A stretch of DNA of 64,000 bases from a virus: the IMG/VR virus record IMGVR_UViG_3300042259_000159; one strand, 5' to 3'. The translations under genes were made by a program, and so were the position numbers. Below, piece by piece: positions 39,577-58,202 of the stretch; the stretch's first letter is position 1; each line of letters opens with the position of its first letter. Under the pieces are notes generated by a model, which was not told where the DNA came from, did no database searches, and saw nothing but the letters and a program-made list of their open reading frames with translations.

Positions 39577-39967
39577 ATGGTATACCGATATACTTATACA
39601 CACCATATCTGCACACAGAAGGTATAGGGGGATATTTCCTGCTAGGATATTTCCACACAAAAAGGGGGAGTATATGGGAGGGATATTCCTGAAGGGAATA
39701 GATATTTTAGACAGGTATATATATATTATCTCTATGCTATATATACTCTATATATGTATATTCCATATATACATATTTCTTCTTATTCTATTCTTCTATT
39801 TCTACTAATGAGATATATACATATTAGGACAGCATATGCATGTGTCTACATCACATGTAGACACATATATACACATTCCCTTTCCTAACGGACAGCCGTA
39901 TTATAACATATTTTTTGGATTTTGTCAAGAACTTTTTTGTATTTCACATGGAAAATATTTCATACCG

Positions 39968-40085
39968 GCTATTCCTTTTGGGAATAGCCTATTCCATTTT
40001 GGAATAACCATTCCTAGGGGAATAGCCTGTTCCCAGAGGGAACAGACATACCCGAAGGGAATAGATATGCCCATTGGAAATAGCA
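39968..40085. repeat. array of inverted repeats built on GGAATAGC / GCTATTCC
   Basis: GCTATTCCttttgGGAATAGC, CTATTCCattttGGAATAA, CATTCCtaggGGAATAG, CCTGTTCCCagagGGAACAG, GGGAATAGA, GGAAATAGC. Confidence 0.8.
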
Positions 40086-40187
40086 AAAGCCCACACACCT
40101 GTAAAGATATGTGGGCTGATAACATTAACAGTGTTAATAACATTAGCGAAGCTAATAATATTTTATCCTATCAATCAATACCTGTAG

Positions 40188-40418
40188 CTACGTGATCGAG
40201 GCAGAGCACCTGTGGTCGAGGTAGAACACCTTGCCAATGCAGAAGGTATGCCCTTCCTTCATAATGCGGAATGTTGCTTGCATGGGCACATTTACCTCCA
40301 CTACCCACTGGATGCCTTGTTCAGGCCAGAAACTCAAGCTGCCGTTAAACTCAAAAGGCTTTGCTTCACAACCCTTCACAGCGGTATTTATCTCTTCCAT
40401 ACCATCTTCACCAGTCAT
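40188..40418 (-). CDS. hypothetical protein
   Basis: ATGA overlap with the methyltransferase stop. Confidence 0.4.
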   Translation of the reverse strand: MTGEDGMEEINTAVKGCEAKPFEFNGSLSFWPEQGIQWVVEVNVPMQATFRIMKEGHTFCIGKVFYLDHRCSASIT

Positions 40419-41269
40419 GACTCCACGGAATCAAGCAAACTTGGCTGCTTATTTCTACGGCTAATAGCCTCGGCGTCTAGCCGCTTAGCGATTATCTCGC
40501 AGTACTTTTCTTCGCGCTCTATCAGGATCCAGCGGCGGCTAGCACGCTCGGCTGCAACTGCTGTTGTGCCGCTGCCCGCGCAGAAATCAAGCACTGTTTC
40601 ACCTTCGTTGGTGTAGGTTTTGATGAGGTATTCCATTAGGGCAACAGGTTTTTGGGTTGGATGGAGTGCTTCAGAGTCTTGGCTAAATTTAATAACACCG
40701 CGAGGGTAGTTTGTAAATTCTTGTTTATAGCTTTCAGATTTGGTCAGATCATTATGTACACTTGTCCTATCCCCATTCTCTTTTAGAGAATCCTTCCGTG
40801 TCTTTGTCCCCGTGTTTTTTACCACCTTGTCCACCTTTACAAGCCCCTGCGCGTTATAAGTTGGCTGCTTGCGGTAGAATACAAGCACGTCCTCAAATCC
40901 TTTTAGCGGCATCCTTTTGGCATTGGGGAAATTTGTTGGACGACCTTTCTCCCAGACCCATGTGTATTTAAGCATTTTGAGATTACTAGCCCCCAAAAGA
41001 CTTGTAAACGGCTGGCTAGCAGTCATAACAACAGCCCCACTAGGCTTGATAGCCCGCTTCAACTGCTCCCACATTGGCTCTAGCGGAATAATGCTATCCC
41101 ACTTACACGCCGTCATTCCAATTCAGCCGTAGGGTGGATCGCATAACACCAGGTCTATAGAGCCGTCTGGGATATATTTCATAACCTCAAGACAATCTCC
41201 ATGAACCAACGTGTTAGGCAATACGCACCCTACGTGCTGTATCTCCTTTTCGTTAGTTATAGTAAACAT
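40415..41269 (-). pseudogene. N6/N4 DNA methyltransferase (beta class) with an in-frame TGA after DPPYG
   Basis: ATG 41269 ... VLCDPPYG-TGA(41125..41123)-IGMTACKWD ... HPTQKP ... FCAGSGTT, all in one frame. The track ORF 40415..41116 is the downstream part. Confidence 0.7.
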
Positions 41270-41811
41270 TAAATAAAATACTCCTGTATGTTTAGTTTCA
41301 AATTATTCCAATCTGTTTGTGTCATATCATTTTTGCACCTATTTTCAAACCACGACAAAAACTGCAAGTTTTCTATGTCATTAGTTCCTCCTTTTGCTTT
41401 TGGTGTTATGTGGTCTATTGATGGCTTTTTGTATTTTTCTTTACCGCCGCTAACCCATCTTTCATAAATCCTATTAAATTGATCGTCATAGTAAAACCTA
41501 CTTATATAACTTTTGTACCATTCAGTTGATATGTCCCATCTGCCTGAACGATTCGTAATTACATCATTTAACAGCTTTAATTTATCAAAATCCTTAAACT
41601 GCATTAACCAATCAGTCGTTACGTCAAACCTCAAGTGTGTTGCCATGTTGTTATAATTGCGCTCAATATCACAATTAAATTTTTTAACACCTCTTAGATT
41701 CTTGGGCTTTCTGGTCTGTACCCCATTTCTCTTCAGGATTCTTGATATTAGTTTGTGATTAGTACCTAGCTTATCCGCTATAGAGCGCATTGAATCGCCA
41801 CTTTTGTACAA
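41269..41811 (-). CDS. HNH endonuclease with N-terminal HTH
   Basis: SIDHITPKAKGGTNDIENLQFLSWFENRCKND. Its stop overlaps the methyltransferase ATG (TAATG). Confidence 0.75.
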   Translation of the reverse strand: MYKSGDSMRSIADKLGTNHKLISRILKRNGVQTRKPKNLRGVKKFNCDIERNYNNMATHLRFDVTTDWLMQFKDFDKLKLLNDVITNRSGRWDISTEWYKSYISRFYYDDQFNRIYERWVSGGKEKYKKPSIDHITPKAKGGTNDIENLQFLSWFENRCKNDMTQTDWNNLKLNIQEYFI

Positions 41812-41816
41812 TTCAA

Positions 41817-42218
41817 CTAATGGATAAATAGGTAATCCCCAATCTCCTCGGGGCGTTTAGCATTTTTTACCTGCTCATTATAAGGAAGAACCAAGAGTTC
41901 ACCAACAGCATCCCTTTTGGATACAGGCAGTTTTTCTTCCAGCCGTTTTTGCATAGACTCGGAGTCCATTCCCATCAACAGCTCAAAAATCTCCAAATCT
42001 TTTAGACGATTATCGGTGGCAGGTAGAAGCGATCCAAGTATACAGGCTTTATTGAGTATCAGGGGTTTGCGCCCTTTCCAGTAACTGCCAAGAGCGGTCA
42101 ATGTTTTGCTCTGAACAGCGCTCTGTTCTTTAAAACTTTCAGCGGATATTTTTTGCACTGGAAAGAGATGTTCAATCAGTGCCGGTTTATCTTTCCATTC
42201 GAACGGTTTCAGTGCCAT
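41817..42218 (-). CDS. DUF1156-like N-terminal fragment (domain normally at the N-terminus of large DNA methylases)
   Basis: From MALKPFEWKDK: LIEHLFPVQKISAESFKEQ...YWKGRKPLILNKACILGSLLP resembles DUF1156. Only about 133 aa; it ends 5 nt before the HNH gene. Confidence 0.4.
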   Translation of the reverse strand: MALKPFEWKDKPALIEHLFPVQKISAESFKEQSAVQSKTLTALGSYWKGRKPLILNKACILGSLLPATDNRLKDLEIFELLMGMDSESMQKRLEEKLPVSKRDAVGELLVLPYNEQVKNAKRPEEIGDYLFIH

Positions 42219-42448
42219 CAGATATCTCCCTTTTCTATAAATCCAACAAGAGGAAGGACTTCTTGTTTTGCTTGTATATTGTACATCTGGCAAAGATCAG
42301 TAAGATTGTCAGAAGATGTAACCCACTTACCAACCTGATTTTTGACATCGAAAAAGGTAACACCCTTATTGTGATTGCATGGTAAGAGGTTTTCAAAAAG
42401 ATTATGGCACCCCCTTAAGGAGGGCTTTTGTATCATAACACCTTCCAC
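42218..42448 (-). CDS. hypothetical protein
   Basis: ORF track. Confidence 0.3.
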   Translation of the reverse strand: MEGVMIQKPSLRGCHNLFENLLPCNHNKGVTFFDVKNQVGKWVTSSDNLTDLCQMYNIQAKQEVLPLVGFIEKGDI

Positions 42449-42592
42449 AGGTGGGACAAAATATTAAACTGGTTAGTTCTGTTTGGTGTATAGTCATCAA
42501 CACACCCTCCCATCACTTGTCATTTGCTTGCTCCTCTGTGTTTTTTGTATGGTTTTATAGCCTCGGCATCGCCCCTGCTTTCTGCCCATTGC

Positions 42593-43417
42593 TTAGATGA
42601 TTGCTTTATTCTCATGTGCACTCTCAATGCGCCGCTTGGCAATGTTGAAATAGCCTTGGTCTAGCTCAATACCGATAAAGCAGCGGTTCAGCAGCTTGGC
42701 CATCTTGCCAGTCGTACCGCTGCCCATGAAGGGGTCGAAAATCGTATCGCCTTCGTTTGACCAGCTTGATATATGTCTTTGCGCTAATTTTTCAGGAAAA
42801 ATTGCAGGGTGCTTAAACGCCTCACTATCCATTGTTGAGTGACCTTTACCTGTCGTTATGTACCATATATTTCCATCTATCTTATCTAATCCAACTGGTT
42901 TCCTTTTCTTGCCACTTCTGGCACTGCGCATTTTTTCAGTTGTAGATGAAAAATAACTGTTCTGACGTGAAGTTTCTTTTTCCGGATATTTTGTCGGAAC
43001 TCGAATGGCGTTAAAGGTTTTAGGTCTACCCTTACTAAAAACAAACATATACTCAAAATCTTGTTCGTATCTGTTGTGGTTTTTCGGTAGTGCGTTTTTA
43101 TGGTATATCATCGTATCATGCAGCCGGAAGCCGCACTCCATAGCCCACAATGCTTGCTTAAAGCTAGTACCTGTCTCACTACCCTTAATCGTGGCGTCAC
43201 CAACAACCCAAACAACAACCCCACCATCTTTAGTAACACGGTATAGGTCTTTAATAACCGCCTTCCAAACATGCTCTCCCCACAACGCATTATTGCCGTT
43301 ATAAGTGCGCAGATTATCGTATGGTGGGCTTGTTACCGTTAAATCAACAATACCATCAGGTATTTCTTTCATCCGCTCAAGGCAATCGCCTAGCATCAGC
43401 TTAATCATCATCACCAC
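42593..43417 (-). CDS. N6/N4 DNA methyltransferase (SPPY type)
   Basis: LTVTSPPYDN, HPAIFPEKL, FDPFMGSGTTG. Confidence 0.8.
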   Translation of the reverse strand: MVMMIKLMLGDCLERMKEIPDGIVDLTVTSPPYDNLRTYNGNNALWGEHVWKAVIKDLYRVTKDGGVVVWVVGDATIKGSETGTSFKQALWAMECGFRLHDTMIYHKNALPKNHNRYEQDFEYMFVFSKGRPKTFNAIRVPTKYPEKETSRQNSYFSSTTEKMRSARSGKKRKPVGLDKIDGNIWYITTGKGHSTMDSEAFKHPAIFPEKLAQRHISSWSNEGDTIFDPFMGSGTTGKMAKLLNRCFIGIELDQGYFNIAKRRIESAHENKAII

Positions 43418-43613
43418 CCATCAGCCCGTCAAACAAATCATCGGTATATCCTTCAATTTTCCCTTCAATATGCCCATCAATCCATGCCCCACCGTATGTT
43501 TTAGGGTAGGGGCTAGTAACACCTTCTAGCTTGTTACGGCTATCCTGTTCACAACACAAGGGGATGTACTTGTTCTGTTCATTTTCACAATCCACCTCAA
43601 TCACATATCTCAT
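43401..43613 (-). CDS. hypothetical protein
   Basis: ORF track. Confidence 0.4.
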   Translation of the reverse strand: MRYVIEVDCENEQNKYIPLCCEQDSRNKLEGVTSPYPKTYGGAWIDGHIEGKIEGYTDDLFDGLMGGDDD

Positions 43614-43634: not shown

Positions 43635-44351
43635 TTATATTTCCGAAAGACGCTTGTTTCCCCTGAACCTTTTACCTTCCGAGTAATTTATTCTCTCCTC
43701 AAGATCAAGCATCCTCGCCCACAATTCCGGCTTATTATTTTTAACAGCCAAAAGGCTGTCCAAGGGTTGAAGGGGGCAGCAATAGCAGGATACCCTATTC
43801 ATGTGTTTGTAGAGGCCCCCCCAATCAAAGCCCCTATCATAGCAGTATTCAAGGGCTGATTTTTCGTCCATATCCCACTCTATCAAAGGAAAACGAAGAA
43901 TCCATCCATGTTTTTCAGCATTAGCATTCATTGTTCTAGAGAGCGCCCTCTCTGATTCATCTTTTGCAAAGCCAATACACTTAACAATGTTACCATCTAT
44001 TTTTTTATAGCTCATCCCCCTCAAATAGTAATCAAAAGCTTTTATCTTTTCTCTTGTACACCACCTTCTAGACGGTGATGGCCATCCAACACCACGGCAC
44101 CTTACTTCTTTAGTCCCCCTAGAGACCACTTCGTGCTCCGTAAGCCAATAATCAAAGGGTTTGTTTGGTTTGAGTATGGTGATTTTGCGAGAAATATAGT
44201 CTTCAACCTTTTTGATATGATCATACATCTCGGGAAATTCCCAACCTGTGTCAAACATAACAATGTCTTCAATCTTTTCTCCACATTCAATGGCCTTCAA
44301 AAGCATTGCTGTAGAATCCTTTCCCCCGCTAAAACTAAAAAATTGTCGCAT
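43635..44351 (-). CDS. PAPS reductase-like PP-loop ATPase
   Basis: N-terminal FSFSGGKDSTAMLL (SGGKDS PP-loop). Confidence 0.65.
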   Translation of the reverse strand: MRQFFSFSGGKDSTAMLLKAIECGEKIEDIVMFDTGWEFPEMYDHIKKVEDYISRKITILKPNKPFDYWLTEHEVVSRGTKEVRCRGVGWPSPSRRWCTREKIKAFDYYLRGMSYKKIDGNIVKCIGFAKDESERALSRTMNANAEKHGWILRFPLIEWDMDEKSALEYCYDRGFDWGGLYKHMNRVSCYCCPLQPLDSLLAVKNNKPELWARMLDLEERINYSEGKRFRGNKRLSEI

Positions 44352-48848: not shown

Positions 48849-51800
48849 CTAAATGCTTTTATCTACAAACTTTCTCTGTGGAAAATCAAATTCCCGCCTT
48901 GTTTTATTCCAAGCTTTTACGGGTGTAAAAAACCCAACAACCCTTGTCAGCTGTGTACTTATATCTTCCGAACATATGGGGCATGTACTGAAGGAACCCA
49001 TAGAGACATGGGAGTTGATACACTCAGAGTATACGGTATTAATGGCAAAATGTTCACATCCACAACCCAAAGCAAAACAGATAATTTTCTTGGCCTGCTC
49101 TCTTGTCAGCCTCTGCCCGACAGTGGCATGAACAATCCCCCCGCCTGTTAGGTTTTTAGTATATTCTCCGTCAATTCTGAGCCTGTCCCACAGAGATGCC
49201 TCTTCCCACAAAGGAACAAACTGGTTTGCATAGAGAGGGTATTCTATAAAAGTATCGCCGTGAATGATCTTATCTGCGCTGCAAACTTTTACAGCCATAC
49301 TCTCTGCTGGGATTTGCTCAATGTTGAAGACATATCCTGCGTTCTTCTTGGTATACAATCTAGCTTTTCTGTTAAGAAATGTCAAGATCTTTTTCTTCAA
49401 ATCCCCCTCAACACCGAACCTTTGTTTAAGAACCTTTTCACACTCGTAAAGACCAAGAATACCAAACGTTGAAAAGAGCCTGTTGAGGTCTATCCACCCA
49501 CGCGTTATAAAAGGCTGAAGACCTATTTGTTCAAGGACATGAATCAAGACCTTATGAGCAATCAGAATATCTTTAGCAGCCTCTACACGGTACGTGTATA
49601 TTTTCCAAAAATCATCAATACTCTCGGCCTCAATTGCCATCTTGTTGAAATTAAGAGTAACAACTCTATGGCTCCCGATGCTGGAAAGAACACCGGCACC
49701 GAAAGAATTGGAGGTGGATGCCACATCTAACATCTCTTCATCATTGATCAATCGGCAACAGCTAGCGATCTTTGTGCTCTCAGATGTGAAAATATTGTAG
49801 CGCGAAATGTCTCTATTAAGAAATATTTCCAAACTCTCTTCGTCTGCAAGGATGTAATCATCGCCGTCCTTAGTTTTTGAAATGTTCATCGTGCAAACAG
49901 GGAACCTGTAAGGCATCCCGTTATTTGAGGGATCTCCTTTATCAAAGATGTCTAGGAATATTTCCTGCAATTCAAAAACATAGTCAACACACTCTTCTAT
50001 ATCTACAACACCACCATCTGAAAACATCCACAAAAGATGTTCCTTTATGATGTACCTGAGTTTGTGTTTATCAAACACCGATACATTGGTAAAGGGACTC
50101 TCAACTCCGTCACGACTCAAATGGTTTACGCTGTGAATAAGCTGTTGAAACTCGTTTTCTATCTCTTTCCTCACAGCCTTATCGTTTTTAAGCACATCAA
50201 GGGGAACCTTATTCTTTATCATGAGAAGGTGAGCAACATCTATAAATACAGTACCTATGGCTAGAGCACCAGCAACATGCGATGACATTTGGTGGATTGT
50301 CTCACACAGGGCGGCAATATAACTATTAACTCTTTTTGCCGGTTTAGAGGGCAATACTCCAAAAGTTCTTCCTTCTGTAATGAGATTTGTTGCGTTTAAA
50401 GAATAACAATTATGTTGCACCATTCCGTTTGCATAAAAACGGCCCGTTGCTGTTGTCAAATCATATACGTCTTGAAGCTCCTCTCTAAGCTTTCTTGTAC
50501 TAGGAATGTCTTCAAGATTAAACCTGATGATTTTTACAACCCTGTTGCTTTCGCCCTTGGTGTTTGCTTTTTCATTATACTTATCATAGTCTTCTTTATG
50601 CATCTTCATCTTATCAGAAAGATCAACCATCTTATTCGTACTTGACGGGACAAAGGAAAGGGCATAAATCGAATTAGAAATATCACTCCCTTTTATCCTT
50701 TTTCTAAGGCATCGAATACCTTCAATGCCTCTAAGGACGTCATAAAGTGTGTTTATTACTGCCATAGACTGCAAACAAATCTCCACCCTGCCATTCTTTT
50801 TGTAGGTATATCCGTCCGCGTCTACAAGCCCCGCAACAAGTGCCTCTACAGAATCATTTGTCCAAGAGAGGATGTTCTTAGGAAGAACCTTTGTGAAGCT
50901 ATTTTCTTTGTTCCCGAAACCAAAAAAGGCACTTACAAGAAAATTCATATCATAAGAAGACCAATTAATCTGTCTCTCGACTTTATCACTGGGCTTAAAA
51001 AGATTCGCATCAGGAAACAAGTCTTTTATGATACTATAAATTCTTGAGTTATCAATATCGTTTTGATAAACACTGCAAAGCGTTCCCCCTCTTGTAAATC
51101 TGAAAGAGCCTTTTATGTCCTTACCGTTCATTACGCCATCATCAACACAATACCCTTCAAAGTTCCCATCACCAAGCATAAAGCCAAGAAGGTAGGCCAG
51201 CTTTTCTGGAACAATTATTGTTTTTTCCACGGAGGGCAAACAAGTCTCTGTCAAAACAGCATCCCCAACAGAAAGTTCTGAGGCTATTTTTTCAGTTCCA
51301 TCTTCCATATAGATTGGGTGGTTGTCTGTTACCAAAGCAAAGTGCCCTGCCTCTGTCTGATACAAAGAGAATCCTGTATCCGTTTTATGCTTGATAATAC
51401 GTTGTACAGCAACCCATCCATTGTTTGTATCCCAAACCTCTATATTAACTTTTTCACTCACATTGCAGGCCAACTTACCGGAACGACCTTTTGCGGTGTT
51501 CTTGTTAGTGATGTTCGCACTCACATTATTACGCAGCATTGCTGTTGTAATCTCTAGATCTCTTGTAAGGCCTTTTGTGTTAATTTCCTCATGCGTACCC
51601 CTATTTTCGGAGTGTATTGCAAACATATTGAAAAGCTTTTTAAGAGGAATACAAATAATCTCTCCGTTAATTCTGACAAAAACAGGCGTGTTTCCATAAT
51701 ACGAATATGGAAGGTTTAGCTTCGTGCTGTCGGAGATGGGAAGACTGAAATCCAACATTTCTCCTATAAGCCTTTTAGCCCTCTTCTTGCCGTAGAGTTC

Positions 51801-52184
51801 CTTCATAACACGGTAGAGGAAATCGTACCCTGCAATTTTTTTCTGGGGGGCACTTGCCTCACTCTGTATTCCGGCAATTGTCTTCTCATTCTTATTAGCA
51901 TTGTCATCAATAGAGACATCATTAATGTTTGCATTTAATTGTTTTTGAAACATCTTGAGAAAGTCTGTATTGTCCTGCGAAAGACCATGCAGACGCATAA
52001 GTTTTTCAGCTTTTGTATCAATCTCTTCTTGAGAAAGGGTTGTTTTACGAGAAAGATTCCTTTTCAAAGCCTTAAGCATCTGTTTCCGTGTGTATTCAAT
52101 CTCAGCATCATTTGTAAAAGATGAAGAAAAACCTTTAGCTATGCTATTCAAAGCAGTAAACTCCTTCTTTTGTAAGTTTAACAT
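48849..52184 (-). CDS. nrdD: anaerobic ribonucleoside-triphosphate reductase (class III), intein-containing
   Basis: C-terminal CPICS Zn site and glycyl-radical region TRVVGFFTPVKAWN. Likely start MLNLQKKEF at 52184, overlapping the nrdG 3' end. A 432-aa insert carries intein blocks. Confidence 0.8.
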   Translation of the reverse strand: MLNLQKKEFTALNSIAKGFSSSFTNDAEIEYTRKQMLKALKRNLSRKTTLSQEEIDTKAEKLMRLHGLSQDNTDFLKMFQKQLNANINDVSIDDNANKNEKTIAGIQSEASAPQKKIAGYDFLYRVMKELYGKKRAKRLIGEMLDFSLPISDSTKLNLPYSYYGNTPVFVRINGEIICIPLKKLFNMFAIHSENRGTHEEINTKGLTRDLEITTAMLRNNVSANITNKNTAKGRSGKLACNVSEKVNIEVWDTNNGWVAVQRIIKHKTDTGFSLYQTEAGHFALVTDNHPIYMEDGTEKIASELSVGDAVLTETCLPSVEKTIIVPEKLAYLLGFMLGDGNFEGYCVDDGVMNGKDIKGSFRFTRGGTLCSVYQNDIDNSRIYSIIKDLFPDANLFKPSDKVERQINWSSYDMNFLVSAFFGFGNKENSFTKVLPKNILSWTNDSVEALVAGLVDADGYTYKKNGRVEICLQSMAVINTLYDVLRGIEGIRCLRKRIKGSDISNSIYALSFVPSSTNKMVDLSDKMKMHKEDYDKYNEKANTKGESNRVVKIIRFNLEDIPSTRKLREELQDVYDLTTATGRFYANGMVQHNCYSLNATNLITEGRTFGVLPSKPAKRVNSYIAALCETIHQMSSHVAGALAIGTVFIDVAHLLMIKNKVPLDVLKNDKAVRKEIENEFQQLIHSVNHLSRDGVESPFTNVSVFDKHKLRYIIKEHLLWMFSDGGVVDIEECVDYVFELQEIFLDIFDKGDPSNNGMPYRFPVCTMNISKTKDGDDYILADEESLEIFLNRDISRYNIFTSESTKIASCCRLINDEEMLDVASTSNSFGAGVLSSIGSHRVVTLNFNKMAIEAESIDDFWKIYTYRVEAAKDILIAHKVLIHVLEQIGLQPFITRGWIDLNRLFSTFGILGLYECEKVLKQRFGVEGDLKKKILTFLNRKARLYTKKNAGYVFNIEQIPAESMAVKVCSADKIIHGDTFIEYPLYANQFVPLWEEASLWDRLRIDGEYTKNLTGGGIVHATVGQRLTREQAKKIICFALGCGCEHFAINTVYSECINSHVSMGSFSTCPICSEDISTQLTRVVGFFTPVKAWNKTRREFDFPQRKFVDKSI
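50409..51704 (-). mobile_element. intein with LAGLIDADG homing endonuclease domain inside NrdD
   Basis: Block A SYYGNTPVFV (Ser1), block B LVTDNHPIY, LAGLIDADG motifs LAYLLGFMLGDGNF and LVAGLVDADGYTY, C-terminal FYANGMVQHN followed by extein Cys (CYSLN). Confidence 0.8.
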
Positions 52185-52659
52185 AATTATTATTATAAAG
52201 TTCTTGGTTAGACGAACCAAGTACGAGTTTTGTCCTTTGCCCTTTTGTTGTATCTGACTGGTGCAGTTCTTTTATATACTCTCCTGTTTTTATAAATTTG
52301 AAACCGTTAAGATTAAGGTATTTAACAGTGTCAATATCGTATCCAGTATAAATACATATGTTAAAACACCCACCGTATTGTTCTAAGAACTGTGCTGTAA
52401 ACCCTCTGTTGCAGGAGGCTAGCGGATCTCCACCAAGAAGTACAATATTATTTGTGCGGTATTTTAAGGTCTCCTGTTTACAATGGTTGTAGAAGTCTTC
52501 AATGGAAAATTCCACACCACCCTGATATTCAGGGTTTTGCAGGGAGGGGTTATGACACCCCTTACAGGAAAAATCACACCCACACATAAAAAGACTTACT
52601 GCCCACCCATCCTTTGAGGGGTAGTCTGTAAATGTCATCTCAGAACCTGCAAATCTCAT
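52144..52659 (-). CDS. nrdG: anaerobic RNR activating enzyme (radical SAM)
   Basis: CGCDFSCKGCHNP (CxxxCxxC cluster). Confidence 0.8.
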   Translation of the reverse strand: MRFAGSEMTFTDYPSKDGWAVSLFMCGCDFSCKGCHNPSLQNPEYQGGVEFSIEDFYNHCKQETLKYRTNNIVLLGGDPLASCNRGFTAQFLEQYGGCFNICIYTGYDIDTVKYLNLNGFKFIKTGEYIKELHQSDTTKGQRTKLVLGSSNQELYNNNYVKLTKEGVYCFE

Positions 52660-55122: not shown

Positions 55123-55206
55123 TGGTAGGAGAAGAGAGATTCGAACTCTCAAGGAATAATCCGTCGAGGCTTAAACTCGATGTGTTTACCATTTCACCAT
55201 TCTCCC
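55123..55206 (-). tRNA. tRNA-Leu (anticodon UAA), type II with long variable arm, CCA encoded
   Basis: GGGAGAA/TTCTCCT acceptor, anticodon arm TCGAG-TTTAAGC-CTCGA, T-arm GAGAG-TTCGAAT-CTCTC. Confidence 0.75.
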
Positions 55207-55245
55207 GTATTTTTTATCTACCATTCCGCCATTCCCGCATTTATT

Positions 55246-55323
55246 TGGTACCCACTGTGAGATTCGAACCCACACTAATCAGTTTCTAAGACTGATGCCT
55301 CTGCCAAGTTGGGCTATACCAGT
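55246..55323 (-). tRNA. chimeric / possibly defective tRNA (anticodon UAG, short variable loop)
   Basis: Good D, anticodon (TCAGT-CTTAGAA-ACTGA) and T arms. However, 5' acceptor ACTGGTA pairs poorly with the local 3' strand AGTGGGT and well with TGCCAGT at 54617..54646. Confidence 0.45.
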
Positions 55324-55581
55324 ATTATGCTTATTATTTTATTTTGAAAGGCCATATGTATACACATATATATATATACATATATATATGTATAGAGCAA
55401 CCAAAATGGTTAAATAAAAAGGTGTTTTGTGGAGACACCAAACTCCTCCAGTTTTAGTGATCTGGAAACAATAAGCGGCGCAGGTGCTCTTTAAAACACG
55501 TGCTACCAAGCGTATAAATTGTCTAGGGGATTTCACCAAACACATTATGTTATTGGAGGGATCTTTCCCTAGACTCAGTAA

Positions 55582-55654
55582 AGCTCCTGACAGGACTTGA
55601 ACCCGCAACCGGCTGATTACAAATCAGCTGCTCTGCCAGTTGAGCTACAGGAGC
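55582..55654 (-). tRNA. tRNA-Thr (anticodon UGU), no encoded CCA
   Basis: GCTCCTG/CAGGAGC acceptor, GCTGA-TTTGTAA-TCAGC. Confidence 0.8.
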
Positions 55655-55658
55655 AGAA

Positions 55659-55730
55659 CAGAGGGAGAAGGATTCGAACCTTCGAATGACGGGACCAAAA
55701 CCCGTTGCCTTACCGCTTGGCTACCCCTCT
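55659..55730 (-). tRNA. tRNA-Gln (anticodon UUG), no encoded CCA
   Basis: ACGGG-TTTTGGT-CCCGT anticodon arm, T-arm GAAGG-TTCGAAT-CCTTC. Confidence 0.75.
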
Positions 55731-55738
55731 AAATTTTT

Positions 55739-55815
55739 TGGCTCCGGCGGCAGGATTTGAACCTACATTCGCAATGGTTAACAGCCATTTGCCTTACCAA
55801 TTCGGCGACACCGGA
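55739..55815 (-). tRNA. tRNA-Asn (anticodon GUU), CCA encoded
   Basis: AATGG-CTGTTAA-CCATT, TTCAAAT T-loop, acceptor TCCGGTG/CGCCGGA. Confidence 0.75.
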
Positions 55816-55860
55816 ATGAACTTTTTATTTGTTATCAGCATTGTTTTGCTTTATTTTAAA

Positions 55861-55939
55861 TGGTCTCGGTGATTAGATTTGAACTAATGATTATTCCTGC
55901 TCCCAAAGCAGGTGCCATACCAAGCTAGGCGACACCGAG
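55861..55939 (-). tRNA. tRNA-Pro (anticodon UGG), CCA encoded
   Basis: CCTGC-TTTGGGA-GCAGG, T-arm ATTAG-TTCAAAT-CTAAT, acceptor CTCGGTG/CACCGAG. The variable region is slightly long. Confidence 0.65.
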
Positions 55940-56519: not shown

Positions 56520-56790
56520 TGTTGATACCTTATAGGTTCAGCCCTACCAAGGGCACTGCGGCTTAAGTGGGTTGGTTGGTGCAGATTGTGAACGTACCCC
56601 CGCCTATAGAGGCGGAAGCTTCCTGCTTCAGCGAGAACAGCACCAGTAACTCCGAAGAGTTGTGGCGAATTACACTCTCTCCACAGGCGTAAATTCCCGT
56701 GCGACCCACGGTACTTTATGAGTTACGCTAGGCAGATATTCGCCCAGCTTCTTCTCTAATATTTATTGCAGCGTTCTTGTCACGGTTATG
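56520..56790 (-). ncRNA. expected TnpB omega-RNA (reRNA) region
   Basis: Located by position at the 3' end of tnpB plus downstream sequence. Hairpins CCGTGGGTCGCACGG, ACTCttcgGAGT and CCGCCtctataGGCGGGGG are present; the exact ends are unknown. Confidence 0.3.
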
Positions 56791-57976
56791 ATGACTGCCA
56801 CACTTAAGGCAATCCCATTCCCGCACAGACAAGTCTTTGGTATCCTTGTTCTGGTAGCCACAGACATGGCATAGCTGACTGCTTGGATACCATTTGTCTA
56901 TCTTGATAAGTTGCTTACCCTGCCATGCAAGTTTGTATTTCAGCATACTTGTGAACATGCTCCAGCCGTTGTCGGATATGGATTTACCAAAGTTGAACTT
57001 GCCACCCTTCTTTCGCTTCGCCATGTCCTTTACGCTAATGTCCTCTATGCCAATCACATCATAGCGGTCTGCAAGATAACGAGCTTTCTTATGCAGGAAG
57101 TCGCGGCGTTGATTAGCAATTTTCTCATGGAGTACAGCCAAACGTAGTCTTTGTTTATTCCTATTACGGCTCCCTTTTTGTCTCTTGGAGAGTTTTCTTT
57201 GTGCCTTGATCAATCTCTTTTCGGCTTCCCGTAAGAAATTTGGATAATCGGCGTTGTCCTCATCGGAAGCAACATACATCCCGTGCATAGCAAAATCCAA
57301 TCCAAGAAAATTCTTCGGTATGATGGGAAGTATTTGGTTTTCATACTCCACCAAAATACTAATATAGTATTTTCCTGACGGTGTTTTACTTATGGTTACA
57401 GTCTTTATGGTGCTATTCTCCATCAATGGACGATGCAGACACAGCTTTACCCAACCTATTTTCGGCAGCTTGACTTTGTTTCCCTCGATTCTTACAGAGC
57501 CATGTTGGTTGTTCGTAGAATATGAAGCATGACCCGCTTTCTTCGACTTGAAGCGTGGCTTGCAAAAATGCTTCCTATTGCTCCAAAAGTTGTTATACGC
57601 CTTGTTCAGGTTTATTTGGGCATTGGCGAGAGCAAGGCTGTCAACCTCTTTCAGCCAAGGAAACTCTTTCTTGTACTGTGCAGGTGTGTTGTTCAGCCTC
57701 TCTCCTGTTTCCTTATAGTGATCAAGACGATCTCCAAGCATCTTGTTATAGATGAATCTGGCACTGCCGAAAGTCTTGGCAAACATAATCTTCTGTTCAA
57801 TTGTCGGGTAGAGTCTATATCGGTATGCCTTATTCACTATAATCACCTGCCTTGATTTTCTATGTATTTACGAATTGTCTCAAACGGAGCAATTATCTGG
57901 CTCAACTACTTACGTAAATTCGCTAGACACACCTTCATCCCCCACCTTAGAGGTGGAGGGCTTCTGGCGGGTTAGG
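56560..57976 (-). mobile_element. IS200/IS605-family TnpB-only element (boundaries approximate)
   Basis: tnpB is flanked by similar subterminal hairpins: LE CCCTCCACCtctaaGGTGGGGG (57939-57960) and RE CCGCCtctataGGCGGGGG (56597-56614). No tnpA is present. Confidence 0.55.
56728..57846 (-). CDS. tnpB: TnpB (OrfB_IS605) RNA-guided nuclease
   Basis: N-terminus AYRYRLYPTIEQKIMFAKTFGSARFIYN. RuvC-like GLDFAM / IGIEDISVKDM / RDKNAAINI. Zn-ribbon CHVCGY...CLKCGSHHNRD. Confidence 0.9.
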   Translation of the reverse strand: MIIVNKAYRYRLYPTIEQKIMFAKTFGSARFIYNKMLGDRLDHYKETGERLNNTPAQYKKEFPWLKEVDSLALANAQINLNKAYNNFWSNRKHFCKPRFKSKKAGHASYSTNNQHGSVRIEGNKVKLPKIGWVKLCLHRPLMENSTIKTVTISKTPSGKYYISILVEYENQILPIIPKNFLGLDFAMHGMYVASDEDNADYPNFLREAEKRLIKAQRKLSKRQKGSRNRNKQRLRLAVLHEKIANQRRDFLHKKARYLADRYDVIGIEDISVKDMAKRKKGGKFNFGKSISDNGWSMFTSMLKYKLAWQGKQLIKIDKWYPSSQLCHVCGYQNKDTKDLSVREWDCLKCGSHHNRDKNAAINIREEAGRISA

Positions 57977-58022: not shown

Positions 58023-58109
58023 TGGTGCCCAATGCAGGACTCGAACCTGCACGCCATTTCAGGCAGGAGGGCTTAAACCTCGTGTGTCTACCAATTCCAC
58101 CAATCGGGC
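58023..58109 (-). tRNA. tRNA-Leu (anticodon UAA), type II, CCA encoded
   Basis: Close to E. coli leuZ-type layout: GCCCGAT..GTGGAATTGGTAGACAC..TTTAAGC..TGCAGGTTCGAGTCCTGCATTGGGCACCA. Confidence 0.8.
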
Positions 58110-58118
58110 TAAAATCTT

Positions 58119-58202
58119 TGGTGCCTCAGACAGGATTCGAACCTGCACGGATCTCTCCACTTGGTCCTAAGCCAAGCGTGTCTGCCATTCCACCACTGAG
58201 GC
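58119..58202 (-). tRNA. tRNA-Leu (anticodon UAG), type II, CCA encoded
   Basis: GCCTCAG acceptor, CTTGG-CTTAGGA-CCAAG, long variable arm, GCAGGTTCGAATCCTGT. Confidence 0.8.

What the first reader, a model, noticed from the sequence alone, without database searches (positions are those of the whole stretch)
40415..42293. DNA methyltransferase with an in-frame TGA right after the catalytic DPPYG, coupled to an HNH gene and a DUF1156-like fragment
- **In-frame stop:** reading from the ATG at 41269 gives ...DLVLCDPPYG-TGA-IGMTACKWDSIIPLE... in a single frame. Motifs IV and I are otherwise intact.
- **Possible explanations:** a very recent nonsense mutation, a sequencing error, programmed read-through or recoding, or a switch that controls methylase dosage.
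- **Context:** the gene is translationally coupled (TAATG) to an upstream HNH endonuclease. That endonuclease is preceded by a 133-aa ORF resembling only the N-terminal DUF1156 domain of large defence-associated methylases. This suggests the HNH gene inserted into, or beside, an older methylase gene.
Basis: seen in the sequence. Interest (0 to 1): 0.55.

Follow-up and report, generated by a model that had tools for sequence, protein, structure and literature searches.

The report
Homing-endonuclease cassette with stop-codon mini-insert
The stop codon inside this phage DNA methylase gene is not damage: it belongs to a 9-base insert carried by a selfish HNH endonuclease gene cassette, found with a stop at the same spot in over 130 phage methylase genes, and ribosomes probably skip it.

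Summary
On the minus strand, ATG 41269 reads ...DPPYG-TGA(41125-41123)-IGMTACKWD.

It is not a point mutation or a sequencing error. Uninterrupted homologues read DPPYG-TTACKWD, so the window carries 9 extra bases, TGA ATT GGA (41125-41117). The same sequence appears in at least 8 independent assemblies.

Pattern scans found 135 distinct junctions with 3-11 extra bases at exactly this site.
- **Stop codon:** 133 of 135 carry one (TGA 91, TAA 24, TAG 18).
- **Reading frame:** about 45% of the inserts shift the frame.
- **Downstream gene:** about 90% keep an intact ORF of roughly 217 codons.
- **Sources:** phage contigs, MAGs from many phyla, TGA=Gly phages and the cultured Geobacillus phage PK3.6.

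The window's HNH family sits directly upstream of 56 of 88 interrupted genes and 0 of 119 uninterrupted ones. Synonymous divergence jumps at the insert. Usually an older methylase N-terminal piece lies upstream of the HNH.

This matches the architecture of the T4 mobA/gene 60 element, but in a different gene and with a much shorter gap.

Best reading: the insert protects the carrier from its own HNH, and ribosomes hop from GGC to GGA. Both steps are inferred. Read-through and re-initiation at ATG 41116 remain open for this phage.

The DUF1156 ORF is a truncated, host-like MtsC N-terminus next to the cassette.

The parts
41126..41269 (-). Cassette-borne N-terminal module of the methylase. It spans 48 codons from ATG 41269 to the Gly codon GGC 41128-41126, the proposed take-off codon. 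It contains motif IV, DPPY, at 41140-41129.
   Evidence: ORF and translation. Part of the PF01555 match. PHROG methylase hits for the 48-aa piece alone. Synonymous divergence against L023-L025 is only 0.07-0.30, compared with 0.9 or more just downstream. DNA identity is 93-99% in many loci whose HNH gene is far more diverged.
41117..41125 (-). The 9-nt insert TGA ATT GGA: stop codon 41125-41123, spacer 41122-41120, and Gly codon GGA 41119-41117, the proposed landing codon. Uninterrupted homologues lack it.
   Evidence: Protein alignment A1. DNA alignment A2. 135 related junctions, of which 133 carry a stop.
40415..41116 (-). Body of the methylase: 233 codons starting at ATG 41116 (M-TACKWD...) and ending at TGA 40417-40415. 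It holds the target-recognition region and motif I (FCAGSGTT). The ATG replaces the ACN (Thr) codon found in relatives and could serve as a re-initiation start.
   Evidence: dN/dS is 0.03-0.19 downstream of the insert. The ATG variant was found only in this phage among IMG/VR contigs.
41269..41811 (-). HNH homing-endonuclease gene with an N-terminal helix-turn-helix. Its stop TAA 41271-41269 overlaps the methylase ATG. The native start (MDVDLIVELYKKG... in relatives) is missing. Only TTG 41811 is available, and the frame stays open upstream to about 41856.
   Evidence: Pfam HNH and HTH_38. PHROG HNH families. Homologues at 42-88% identity lie directly upstream of 56/88 interrupted and 0/119 uninterrupted methylase genes. 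N-termini compared.
41270..41300 (-). Conserved leader of the methylase, lying inside the 3' end of the HNH ORF. It includes the Shine-Dalgarno sequence AGGAG at 41285-41281.
   Evidence: Read directly from the sequence. The same leader precedes the N-module in loci where the HNH has been lost or reduced to a 22-30-aa remnant.
41817..42218 (-). Truncated DUF1156 (MtsC-like defence methylase) N-terminal ORF of 133 aa. It abuts the cassette and is not part of the cassette in any other locus.
   Evidence: Pfam and NCBIfam matches. Homologues continue past ...LFSH|IW into a methylase core. Bacterial context is DUF499-DUF3780-DUF1156-PLD/helicase. A second allele exists in an otherwise identical phage.

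Best explanation
The TGA is the first codon of a 9-nt insert (TGA ATT GGA). The insert marks the downstream edge of a mobile cassette made of an HNH homing-endonuclease gene, a replacement 5' leader and a 48-codon N-terminal module of a PF01555 (beta-class N6/N4) DNA methylase.

**Shown here**
- Cassettes of this family sit inside phage methylase genes just upstream of the DPPY motif.
- They leave an older N-terminal piece upstream of the HNH.
- They supply a fresh N-module that ends in DPPY(G), a stop codon and 0-5 further bases.
- The stop codon itself is conserved, in any of its three forms.
- The methylase ORFs on both sides stay intact.

**Inferred**
1. The insert breaks the HNH target in the conserved DPPYG|TTACKWD coding sequence, so the carrier phage is immune to its own endonuclease. 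This is the role shown for the 50-nt insert of T4 gene 60 with MobA.
2. Full-length methylase is still made because ribosomes stalled with the stop codon in the A site let peptidyl-tRNA(Gly) leave GGC (41128-41126) and re-pair with GGA (41119-41117). Decoding then resumes at the next codon. This is a short 'stop-hop' that gives DPPYG-MTACKWD with canonical spacing.

**My estimates:** cassette and immunity origin about 0.8; hop as the decoding route about 0.4-0.45.
For: **It is an insert, not a substitution**
- Uninterrupted homologues read DPPYG-TTACKWD.
- The cultured Geobacillus phage PK3.6 has a 7-nt insert at this site relative to PK5.1 and PT9.1.

**It recurs at one site**
- There are 135 distinct junctions of 70 types with 3-11 extra bases. 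Stops: TGA 91, TAA 24, TAG 18, none 2.
- In the 9-nt class the neighbouring third positions vary freely. The first codon only moves among the three stop codons, which implies selection for a stop.

**It works in any frame**
- About 45% of inserts are not multiples of 3.
- Of 92 informative genes, 81 pass a strict intactness test and only about 6 are clearly truncated.
- 95 of 123 junctions have no canonical start codon that could begin a separate C-terminal protein including GTTACKWD.

**The flanking codons match**
- When a Gly codon precedes the stop, the triplet before ACN-ACN is GGN in most cases. Otherwise it is usually AGC, AGT, CGC or TGC.
- When the stop follows TAY directly, the triplet before GGN is GAC, GAT, AAC or AAT.
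- In TGA=Gly phages the stop is TAA, flanked by TGA...TGA or TGA...GGA.
- A hop would give the canonical protein in every class.
- The spacing from the Tyr of DPPY to the conserved Trp is the same in M.RsrI.

**It is linked to the HNH gene**
- The HNH is present within 400 nt upstream of 56/88 interrupted and 0/119 uninterrupted genes (Fisher p = 5e-28).
- The modal distance from the HNH stop to the junction is 143 nt.
- An older methylase N-terminal piece lies upstream of the HNH in 32/40 loci.

**The insert is a recombination boundary**
- Synonymous divergence is 0.07-0.30 in the N-module and 0.9 to saturated immediately after the insert. The DNA identity profile agrees.
- L003 is identical to the window from the HNH onward and diverges only upstream of 41859.

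**The interrupted gene outlives the HNH**
- L023, L025, L050, L053, L094 and L113 have lost the HNH or keep only a remnant of it. They still hold the stop insert and an intact ORF of 211-282 codons.

**Precedent**
- The MobA/gene 60 element is described as HNH + N-terminal extension + homologous replacement region + bypass insert that blocks MobA nicking.
- Synthetic stop-hops are known in E. coli, but no natural occurrence was known as of 2016.
- A candidate 10-nt bypass exists in phage Hau3.

**The genetic code is standard here**
- Stop usage in 31 window ORFs is TAA 19, TAG 8, TGA 4. The window encodes no suppressor tRNA.
Against: - There is no direct evidence for any translation product, for methylation or for HNH cleavage. 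Everything rests on comparative sequence analysis.
- In the 9-nt class to which the window belongs, the spacer behaves like a translated Ile/Leu codon: A or C at position 1, T at position 2 in 60 of 61 cases, and T, A or C at position 3. Read-through predicts this pattern; a hop does not obviously predict it.
- Within the window's own cassette lineage, 43 of 45 inserts are in frame.
- The landing codon GGA matches the take-off codon GGC only at positions 1 and 2.
- No stable RNA structure surrounds the site (z = -1.0).
- From memory, unaided stop-hops in E. coli are inefficient, at around the percent level.
- This phage, apparently uniquely, has ATG two codons after the stop, which points to re-initiation.
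- The window's HNH has lost its native start, so it may no longer be active.
- Purifying selection measured across old divergences may largely predate the cassette's arrival.
Confidence: 0.5

Rival explanations
1. Leaky termination (stop-codon read-through). A near-cognate tRNA occasionally decodes TGA, giving a low level of a methylase with three extra residues (DPPYG-X-I-G-MTACKWD). The stop would act as an expression throttle.
For: - The insert is in frame in the window and in 43 of 45 members of its cassette lineage.
- The spacer and the second Gly codon vary like translated codons: ATT, ATA and ATC or CTT and CTA, followed by GGA, GGC or GGT. The second spacer position is T in 60 of 61 cases.
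- The base after the stop is A or C in 81% of junctions. From memory, these are weak termination contexts.
Against: - It cannot explain the roughly 45% of junctions that change frame yet keep intact ORFs. These include frame-shifted members of the same lineage: L114, L140 and proteins P0023 and P0025.
- TAA, the tightest stop, also occurs.
- No member has converted the stop to a sense codon, although 8 of 9 single-base changes of TGA would do so.
- Only one related junction (L090) has a sense insertion at this site.
- The Tyr-to-Trp spacing is conserved as far away as M.RsrI.
Confidence: 0.15
2. A genuine two-piece enzyme in this phage. Translation ends at TGA and the same ribosome re-initiates at ATG 41116, 6 nt downstream. 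The 48-aa N-piece carrying DPPY and the 233-aa C-piece then assemble without a covalent link.
For: - The window has ATG where relatives have ACN (Thr), a change seen only in this phage in IMG/VR.
- Some frame-shifted relatives have an overlapping ATG. GenBank annotators used it for Geobacillus phage PK3.6, calling two CDS of 39 and 221 aa.
- From memory, genes split by homing endonucleases can function as two polypeptides (T4 gp39/gp60; Aeh1 NrdA).
Against: - 95 of 123 junctions have no canonical start codon for the C-piece, so this cannot be the family's general solution.
- There is no Shine-Dalgarno sequence at useful spacing before ATG 41116.
- The split falls right after the central strand and catalytic loop of the fold. 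This is an inference from the alignment to M.RsrI and CcrM.
Confidence: 0.15
3. Collateral damage from a selfish element. The cassette inactivates the methylase, and the downstream ORF looks intact only because invasions are recent.
For: - Vibrio phage VnaP and Pseudoalteromonas phage H101 carry this HNH family next to decayed methylase N-pieces and have no methylase body.
- About 6 of 92 interrupted genes are truncated downstream.
- Selection measured over old divergence may predate the invasion.
Against: - About 90% of interrupted genes are intact.
- N-modules have diverged by dS 0.07-0.30 without any loss of the stop or of either ORF.
- Several loci have lost the HNH yet keep the stop insert and both intact halves.
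- The stop is conserved while adjacent neutral positions vary. That would not be expected in a dead gene.
Confidence: 0.12
4. A trivial or code-level cause: sequencing error, a recent nonsense mutation, TGA reassigned as a sense codon, selenocysteine, or a suppressor tRNA.
For: Some related junctions come from phages that read TGA as Gly.
Against: - The sequence is identical in at least 8 independent contigs.
- The difference is a 9-nt insertion, not a substitution.
- TAG and TAA occupy the same position in relatives.
- Window ORFs of up to 1123 aa contain no in-frame TGA, and four genes end in TGA.
- The window encodes no suppressor tRNA.
- In the TGA=Gly phages the insert uses TAA as its stop.
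Confidence: 0.02

Closest known systems
Phage T4 mobA / gene 60 mobile cassette (HNH homing endonuclease plus 50-nt translational bypass insert), as described in bioRxiv 10.1101/2022.08.31.505936, which cites Bonocora et al. 2011
   Same: - An HNH endonuclease gene is inserted into a conserved phage gene.
- The element carries a replacement N-terminal region of about 45-48 aa for the downstream ORF.
- That region is followed by a non-coding insert that begins with a stop codon right after a Gly take-off codon and ends at a matching Gly landing codon.
- In some genomes the endonuclease has decayed or been lost while the insert remains.
- The structure suggests independent invasions at a single site.
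   Different: - The target is a PF01555 DNA methylase, not topoisomerase II.
- The gap is 3-11 nt rather than 50 nt (20 nt in one clade).
- There is no take-off stem-loop or other predicted structure.
- The older N-terminal piece appears to be discarded rather than used as a second subunit.
- The host range spans many phyla, including TGA=Gly lineages.
- Homology of this HNH to MobA was not tested.
- Neither bypass nor protection from cleavage has been demonstrated here.
Synthetic 'stop-hops' in E. coli (matched codons flanking a stop, so that 9 nt specify one amino acid), as summarised in Atkins et al. 2016, PMC5009743
   Same: The layout is the same as the GGT TGA GGN class. With one extra spacer codon it is also the layout of the window's GGC TGA ATT GGA.
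   Different: Those were engineered constructs. The review states that no natural occurrence was known. The present case is a natural, conserved family, but it lacks experimental proof.
Candidate UUA-triggered bypass of 10-nt inserts in the Streptomyces phage Hau3 terminase gene (PMC10732093)
   Same: Short inserts of about 10 nt lie in an essential phage gene, and bypass triggered by a slow-to-decode A-site codon is proposed for them.
   Different: The trigger there is a rare sense codon tied to the host's developmental stage. Stem-loop and Shine-Dalgarno stimulators are proposed for it. No homing endonuclease is linked to it.
Programmed stop read-through (Q-beta A1 protein) and the prfB +1 frameshift at CUU UGA C (both recalled from memory)
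   Same: Recoding occurs at a UGA in a weak context. A or C follows the stop in 81% of the junctions here.
   Different: Read-through cannot serve the out-of-frame classes. The prfB type needs a slippery P-site codon and an upstream Shine-Dalgarno sequence, and neither is present here.
Beta-class N6/N4 DNA methyltransferases (Pfam PF01555; solved relatives CcrM 6PBD and M.RsrI 1EG2)
   Same: The Pfam profile matches over its full length. Motifs IV and I are present, and the DPPY-to-Trp spacing is canonical once the insert is skipped.
   Different: The coding sequence is interrupted directly after motif IV.

Membership tests
PF01555 beta-class DNA N6/N4 methyltransferase | Full-length match to the family profile, with motif IV (DPPY) near the N-terminus and motif I (FxGxG) near the C-terminus | tested here: met
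   Profile positions 1-220 of 221, E 4e-31. DPPY and FCAGSGTT are both present. Homologues reach 81% identity. CcrM and M.RsrI were found among solved structures.
PF01555 beta-class DNA N6/N4 methyltransferase | A single uninterrupted ORF | tested here: not met
   There is an in-frame TGA at 41125-41123.
MobA/gene-60-type cassette (homing endonuclease plus bypass insert) | An HNH endonuclease gene physically linked to the interrupted gene and absent from uninterrupted alleles | tested here: met
   56/88 interrupted versus 0/119 uninterrupted, p = 5e-28. The window's HNH ORF is 41269-41811.
MobA/gene-60-type cassette (homing endonuclease plus bypass insert) | The element lies inside the target gene and brings a replacement N-terminal region for the downstream ORF | tested here: met
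   An older methylase N-piece lies upstream of the HNH in 32/40 related loci. The N-module has low dS and the boundary falls at the insert. In the window itself the upstream piece is a DUF1156 fragment instead.
MobA/gene-60-type cassette (homing endonuclease plus bypass insert) | A non-coding insert that starts with a stop codon right after the take-off codon and ends at a matching landing codon | tested here: met
   The window reads GGC TGA ATT GGA. A central-position match plus at least one further match is seen in nearly all of 123 junctions, including TGA...TGA in TGA=Gly phages.
MobA/gene-60-type cassette (homing endonuclease plus bypass insert) | A long gap of 20-50 nt with a take-off stem-loop and other RNA signals | tested here: not met
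   The gap is 9 nt (3-11 nt across the family). No stable local structure was predicted, z = -1.0.
MobA/gene-60-type cassette (homing endonuclease plus bypass insert) | Ribosomes demonstrably bypass the insert, and the insert blocks cleavage by the endonuclease | not testable with these tools
   This needs mass spectrometry or reporter assays and in vitro cleavage or mixed-infection experiments.
MobA/gene-60-type cassette (homing endonuclease plus bypass insert) | Sequence homology of the endonuclease to MobA | not tested
   Only generic HNH matches were obtained. No MobA sequence was compared.
Stop-codon reassignment (genetic code 4 or 25) or a suppressor tRNA | In-frame TGA at conserved sense positions throughout the genes, or a tRNA that reads TGA | tested here: not met
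   Long window ORFs contain no in-frame TGA, and 4 of 31 genes end in TGA. None of the 8 tRNAs is a suppressor. Related TGA=Gly phages use TAA in the insert.
Programmed stop-codon read-through | An in-frame stop whose downstream codons are translated contiguously with those upstream | tested here: inconclusive
   The window's class is in frame and its spacer varies like a codon. However, 45% of the family is out of frame.
DUF1156 / MtsC-type defence methyltransferase (MANTIS, BREX-related type 2) | A protein of about 960 aa with the DUF1156 N-terminus, methylase core, TRD and CTD, encoded next to DUF499, DUF3780 and PLD-helicase genes | tested here: not met
   Only profile positions 1-85 of 960 are present. 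The ORF ends where homologues continue into motif I. The window has no DUF499, DUF3780 or PLD-helicase neighbours. The bacterial context is seen for P0126.

The most novel reading that the evidence does not exclude
This would be the first natural, evolutionarily maintained family of short-range 'stop-hops'. Ribosomes would skip 3-11 nt, in any frame, by re-pairing peptidyl-tRNA(Gly) or peptidyl-tRNA(Tyr) on a near-cognate triplet just past a stop codon.

An HNH homing-endonuclease cassette would use this as a general way to place a self-immunity insert inside the catalytic motif of a target gene without changing the protein. It would operate across many bacterial phyla, including hosts that read TGA as Gly.

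A second, separate possibility concerns the adjacent 133-aa MtsC N-terminal fragment. It includes the DNA-binding loop and could be a phage decoy against MANTIS-type (BREX-related type 2) defence systems.
Probability: 0.4. Interest if true: 0.9.

Novelty: new variant of a known kind. Interest (0 to 1): 0.82.

Why it matters
- **Natural bypass is very rare.** It is known essentially from T4 gene 60 and its homologues, from one yeast mitochondrial genome, and from one candidate phage terminase. The 2016 recoding review states that no natural stop-hops were known.
- **This may be a second example of a rule.** Here a second, unrelated target gene shows the same 'HNH plus replacement N-terminus plus stop-initiated insert' architecture as the MobA element, with a minimal gap. 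Pairing a homing endonuclease with an untranslated immunity insert may therefore be a general strategy and not a T4 curiosity.
- **It offers natural test material.** There are 70 junction variants, with different gap lengths, frames, stops and landing triplets, for testing what a ribosome needs in order to hop.
- **It affects annotation.** Gene callers report these methylases as truncated proteins or as two genes. Examples are the 219-aa P0001 and the two CDS in Geobacillus phage PK3.6. Phage methylome predictions will therefore miss them.
- **It stays useful if hopping is disproved.** A stop codon maintained by selection at one site of a catalytic motif in more than 130 genes would still need an explanation.

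Tried and rejected
- **Megablast against GenBank phages.** Window 40100-43500 gave no match, so no close cultured relative exists.
- **Suppressor tRNA or altered genetic code.** Rejected.
- **RNA structure around the site.** Nothing beyond shuffled controls.
- **Independent start codon for the C-terminal ORF as a general solution.** Rejected: absent in 95 of 123 junctions.
- **A second mobile-element insertion.** I suspected one after ...IPFN in L057, L065, L087 and L147. It is a roughly 45-aa in-frame protein insertion, not an endonuclease.
- **'Series C' junctions (TAC TGA TAA C TGA ACT).** These first looked incompatible with hopping. They come from TGA=Gly phages and in fact fit the matched-codon rule.
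- **Escherichia phage vB_EcoM_011D4.** Its split methylase is broken at a different position, mid-gene, and is unrelated.
- **Geobacillus phages PK5.1 and PT9.1.** They are too diverged from PK3.6 to define cassette borders. They show only the 7-nt insert.
- **Vibrio phage VnaP and Pseudoalteromonas phage H101.** They carry the HNH family but only decayed methylase remnants.
- **Literature searches.** Searches for a stop or insert after DPPY, for split phage methylases, or for bypass in methylases found no prior description.
- **DUF1156 ORF as the ancestral gene split by the HNH.** Considered and rejected as a general model, because no other locus pairs the two.
- **Not run.** Structure prediction and fold search, because they could not discriminate between the rival decoding routes.


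Full report
**1. The observation**

On the minus strand, the ATG at 41269 opens a frame that reads MFTITNEKEIQHVGCVLPNTLVHGDCLEVMKYIPDGSIDLVLCDPPYG. It then meets TGA (41125-41123) and continues IGMTACKWDSIIPLEPMWEQLK... to TGA 40417-40415. With X placed at the stop, the protein matches Pfam PF01555 over profile positions 1-220 of 221 (E 4e-31), and motifs IV and I are intact.

The upstream ORF 41269-41811 is an HNH endonuclease with a helix-turn-helix. Its TAA overlaps the methylase ATG. The ORF 41817-42218 (133 aa) matches only the first 85 of 960 positions of the NCBIfam DUF1156 anti-phage profile.

**2. It is an insertion, and it is real**

Close homologues (58-81% identity) read DPPYG-TTACKWD with no gap. 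The window has nine extra bases, TGA ATT GGA (41125-41117), and its next codon is ATG where relatives have ACN.

The 219-aa C-terminal protein that gene callers report (P0001) is encoded on at least 8 contigs from JGI metagenomes and Logan assemblies. Four were retrieved:
- L001, L002 and L004 are 100% identical to the window.
- L003 differs at 84 positions, all within 41859-42150, which lies inside the DUF1156 ORF. It carries the same HNH, the same stop and the same methylase.

Sequencing error and a private nonsense mutation are excluded.

The phage uses the standard genetic code. ORFs of 1123, 861 and 632 aa contain no in-frame TGA. Stop usage in 31 ORFs is TAA 19, TAG 8, TGA 4. None of the eight tRNAs in the window is a suppressor. 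The phage is about 91.6 kb (IMG/VR contig). Its replication proteins resemble those of Pseudaeromonas, Pseudomonas and Acinetobacter phages at about 40-45% identity.

**3. The same interruption occurs in unrelated phages**

Three N-terminally truncated homologues were traced to their contigs (L023, L024, L025). These are different phages with different neighbouring genes (PolA, 5'-3' exonuclease, primase-helicase). All read DPPYG-TGA-(I/L)-G-TTACKWD.

I then ran degenerate DNA pattern scans of IMG/VR, of JGI metagenome contigs (capped at 120 loci) and of GTDB genomes. These gave 135 distinct junction contexts of 70 sequence types, in which 3-11 extra bases separate DPPY(G) from (G)TTACKWD.

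- **Length.** In the first 123 junctions, the distance between TAY and ACN-ACN is 12 nt (58 cases), 7 (16), 8 (15), 10 (10), 9 (9), 11 (8), 13 (3), 14 (3) and 6 (1). It is 3 nt in uninterrupted genes. About 45% therefore change the reading frame.
- **Stop codon.** 133 of 135 contain a stop directly after Tyr or Gly: TGA 91, TAA 24, TAG 18.
- **TGA=Gly phages.** Ten loci come from phages that read TGA as glycine, with in-frame TGA at conserved Gly positions along the whole gene. There the insert's stop is TAA, flanked by TGA...TGA or TGA...GGA.
- **Hosts.** Loci binned into MAGs are labelled Saccharibacteria, Leptolyngbyaceae (seven copies), Bacteroidetes, Clostridium, Bacilli, Anaeroplasma, Sebaldella and Pedobacter.
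- **A cultured case.** Geobacillus phage vB_GthS_PK3.6 reads DLPYG-TAA-C-GGC-TTACKWD. It is annotated as two CDS of 39 and 221 aa. Its relatives PK5.1 and PT9.1 lack the 7 nt.

**4. The stop is maintained and the gene stays intact**

In the 61 members of the 9-nt class, the third positions of both Gly codons and of the spacer vary freely. The first inserted codon only moves among the three stop codons, even though 8 of 9 single-base changes of TGA would create a sense codon.

Of 92 interrupted genes with enough downstream sequence, 81 pass a strict test: an ORF of at least 180 codons with both C-terminal motifs, median 217 codons. Only about six are clearly truncated.

Between the window and L023-L025, dN/dS is 0.03-0.19 in the 16 codons between the stop and the first Met, and 0.03-0.09 in the body. 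The stretch right after the stop has therefore evolved as coding sequence in that frame. One caveat applies: much of that divergence may predate the insert.

Stronger evidence comes from loci that have lost the HNH or keep only a 22-30-aa remnant (L023, L025, L050, L053, L094, L113). They still hold the stop insert and intact ORFs of 211-282 codons.

**5. Link to the HNH gene: a mobile cassette**

tblastn with the window's HNH finds homologues at 42-88% identity directly upstream of the interrupted methylase. The modal distance from the HNH stop to the junction is 143 nt.

As a control I retrieved a set of uninterrupted genes. The HNH lies within 400 nt upstream of 56 of 88 interrupted genes and of 0 of 119 uninterrupted genes (Fisher p = 5e-28).

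Other features point to a mobile unit:
- In 32 of 40 loci with a full-length HNH, an older PF01555 N-terminal piece (GDCLExM...SVD..) lies just upstream of the HNH. In five it is fused in frame, for example L031: MIDLYNGDCLEEMKKISDGSVDMV|IVELYKKGDSMRS. The element therefore sits inside the methylase gene, a few codons before DPPY.
- Downstream of the HNH, the element supplies a new leader (Shine-Dalgarno AGGAG at 41285-41281 in the window) and a new 48-codon N-module.
- Synonymous divergence is 0.07-0.30 in the N-module and jumps to 0.9 or saturation immediately after the insert.
- The last 70 nt before the insert are 93-99% identical in loci whose HNH genes are only 45-85% identical.
- L003 and the window are identical from the HNH onward and differ only upstream of it.

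Together these features match what has been described for the T4 MobA element. That element is an HNH gene plus an N-terminal extension with a homologous replacement region, plus a bypass insert that starts with a stop after a Gly take-off codon. It is inserted recurrently at one site. The endonuclease is often lost while the insert remains, and the insert protects against MobA nicking.

**6. How the gene is probably decoded**

Any general mechanism must work in all three frames and without a start codon. No canonical start that would include GTTACKWD exists in 95 of 123 junctions.

The flanking triplets give a clue:
- When a Gly codon precedes the stop, the triplet just before ACN-ACN is GGN in most cases. 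Otherwise it is usually AGC, AGT, CGC or TGC, with two exceptions, GTT and AGA.
- When the stop follows Tyr directly, the triplet just before GGN is GAC, GAT, AAC or AAT, which shares positions 2 and 3 with TAY.
- In TGA=Gly phages the flanking pair is TGA...TGA.

Suppose peptidyl-tRNA leaves its codon when the stop occupies the A site and re-pairs on that near-cognate triplet. Every class would then yield the canonical DPPY-G-TTACKWD. The Tyr-to-Trp spacing is conserved as far away as M.RsrI.

[quoted passage not shown] A 10-nt candidate bypass exists in phage Hau3. The base after the stop is A or C in 81% of junctions. From memory, these are weak termination contexts.

For the window the hop would run from GGC (41128-41126) to GGA (41119-41117) and give DPPYG-MTACKWD.

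**7. What argues against the hop, and what remains open for this phage**

- In the 9-nt class the spacer looks like a translated Ile/Leu codon. Position 2 is T in 60 of 61 cases.
- 43 of 45 members of the window's own cassette lineage are in frame. Read-through therefore remains a live alternative for this class. It still cannot serve the out-of-frame classes, nor the frame-shifted members of the same lineage (L114, L140, P0023, P0025).
- The window alone among IMG/VR contigs has ATG two codons after the stop. Termination followed by re-initiation, giving a two-piece enzyme, is therefore also plausible here. PK3.6 and some other +1 variants have an overlapping ATG.
- No RNA structure was detected.
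- The window's HNH has lost its native N-terminus: relatives begin MDVDLIVELYKKG..., whereas here only TTG 41811 is available. It may be inactive.
- Nothing was measured directly.

I put the cassette and immunity origin at about 0.8 and the hop at about 0.4-0.45. The alternatives are read-through at about 0.15, a two-piece enzyme at about 0.15 and a dead gene at about 0.12.

**8. The DUF1156 ORF**

Its closest relatives (76-82% identity) are N-terminal parts of full-length bacterial DUF1156 methylases. These continue past ...LFSH|IW into motif I (FCGSGQIPFEA), whereas the window ORF stops at ...LFIH, right at the HNH border.

One relative lies in a DUF499-DUF3780-DUF1156-PLD/helicase operon. 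This resembles the four-gene BREX-related type 2 (MANTIS) layout, in which the methylase is MtsC. Residues 37-58 of MtsC form the DNA-binding loop.

No other cassette locus contains a DUF1156 gene. The fragment is therefore a neighbour and not the cassette's original target.

The two alleles (window and L003) differ by 46 synonymous and 19 non-synonymous codon changes within otherwise identical DNA. This looks like a recombination patch from a homologous host gene. Whether the fragment acts as a decoy against such defence systems is speculation.

**9. Novelty and verdict**

Literature searches found no description of a stop or insert after DPPY in phage methylases, nor of bypass in a methylase.

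The element is best classed as a new variant of a known kind: a MobA/gene-60-like cassette of homing endonuclease plus bypass insert, in a different target gene and with a minimal gap. It is potentially the first natural stop-hop family.

Noticed in passing
window 39650-40190: This is the divergent intergenic region at the strand and GC-skew switch. It holds at least 5 copies of a palindromic site, CTATTCC-N5-GGAATAG (39682-39705, 39968-39991, 39989-40011, 40026-40049, 40045-40068). It also holds three AT-rich ATATATACATATT repeats. It could be an operator array or a replication origin.
   Followed up: partly
window 48849-52220 (-): The 1123-aa anaerobic ribonucleotide reductase (NrdD) ORF carries an intein. 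Pfam Intein_splicing matches residues 258-604. This is another selfish element in the same phage.
   Followed up: no
window 56728-57846 (-) and tRNA genes at 55123-55939 and 58023-58202: An IS605 OrfB/TnpB-like ORF lies between two tRNA-Leu(taa)/tRNA-Leu(tag) pairs (55123-55314 and 58023-58202). The tRNA pair may have been duplicated around the element.
   Followed up: no
window 41817-42218 (-); L003 1-378: The 133-aa MtsC-like (DUF1156) N-terminal fragment includes the region equivalent to the MtsC DNA-binding loop. It exists as two alleles in otherwise identical phages: 84 nt differences confined to 41859-42150, with 46 synonymous and 19 non-synonymous codon changes. It may be a decoy against MANTIS-type (BREX-related type 2) defence.
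   Followed up: partly
L062, L089, L091, L092, L100, L111, L128, L133 (metagenome loci): These phage contigs read TGA as glycine throughout the methylase gene, for example LF*SEPF and NE*ETVLDFTA*S*TT. This is a code-25-like usage. They carry a diverged copy of the same HNH family (33-39% identity).
   Followed up: partly
L171, L172, L175, L180, L181, L182 (Leptolyngbyaceae MAG CBDHHL01): Seven contigs of one cyanobacterial MAG each carry a near-identical interrupted methylase (GGT TGA GC ACG). This suggests a multi-copy element or several related prophages or plasmids.
   Followed up: no
L190 (Vibrio phage VnaP, ON212104) and L189 (Pseudoalteromonas phage H101, KR534323): These cultured phages carry the same HNH family (47% identity). 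It is flanked only by decayed methylase N-terminal pieces, and no methylase body follows. They look like end-stage relics of the cassette.
   Followed up: partly
L057, L065, L087, L147: Some family members have an in-frame protein insertion of about 45 aa between ...IPFN and GMW/GLW, about 12 codons downstream of the stop insert. It is not an endonuclease and its function is unknown.
   Followed up: partly
window 42593-43417 (-) and 43635-44351 (-): A second, uninterrupted PF01555 methylase (motif SPPY) and a PAPS-reductase-family gene lie just upstream in the same transcription direction. The phage therefore encodes at least two DNA methylases.
   Followed up: no
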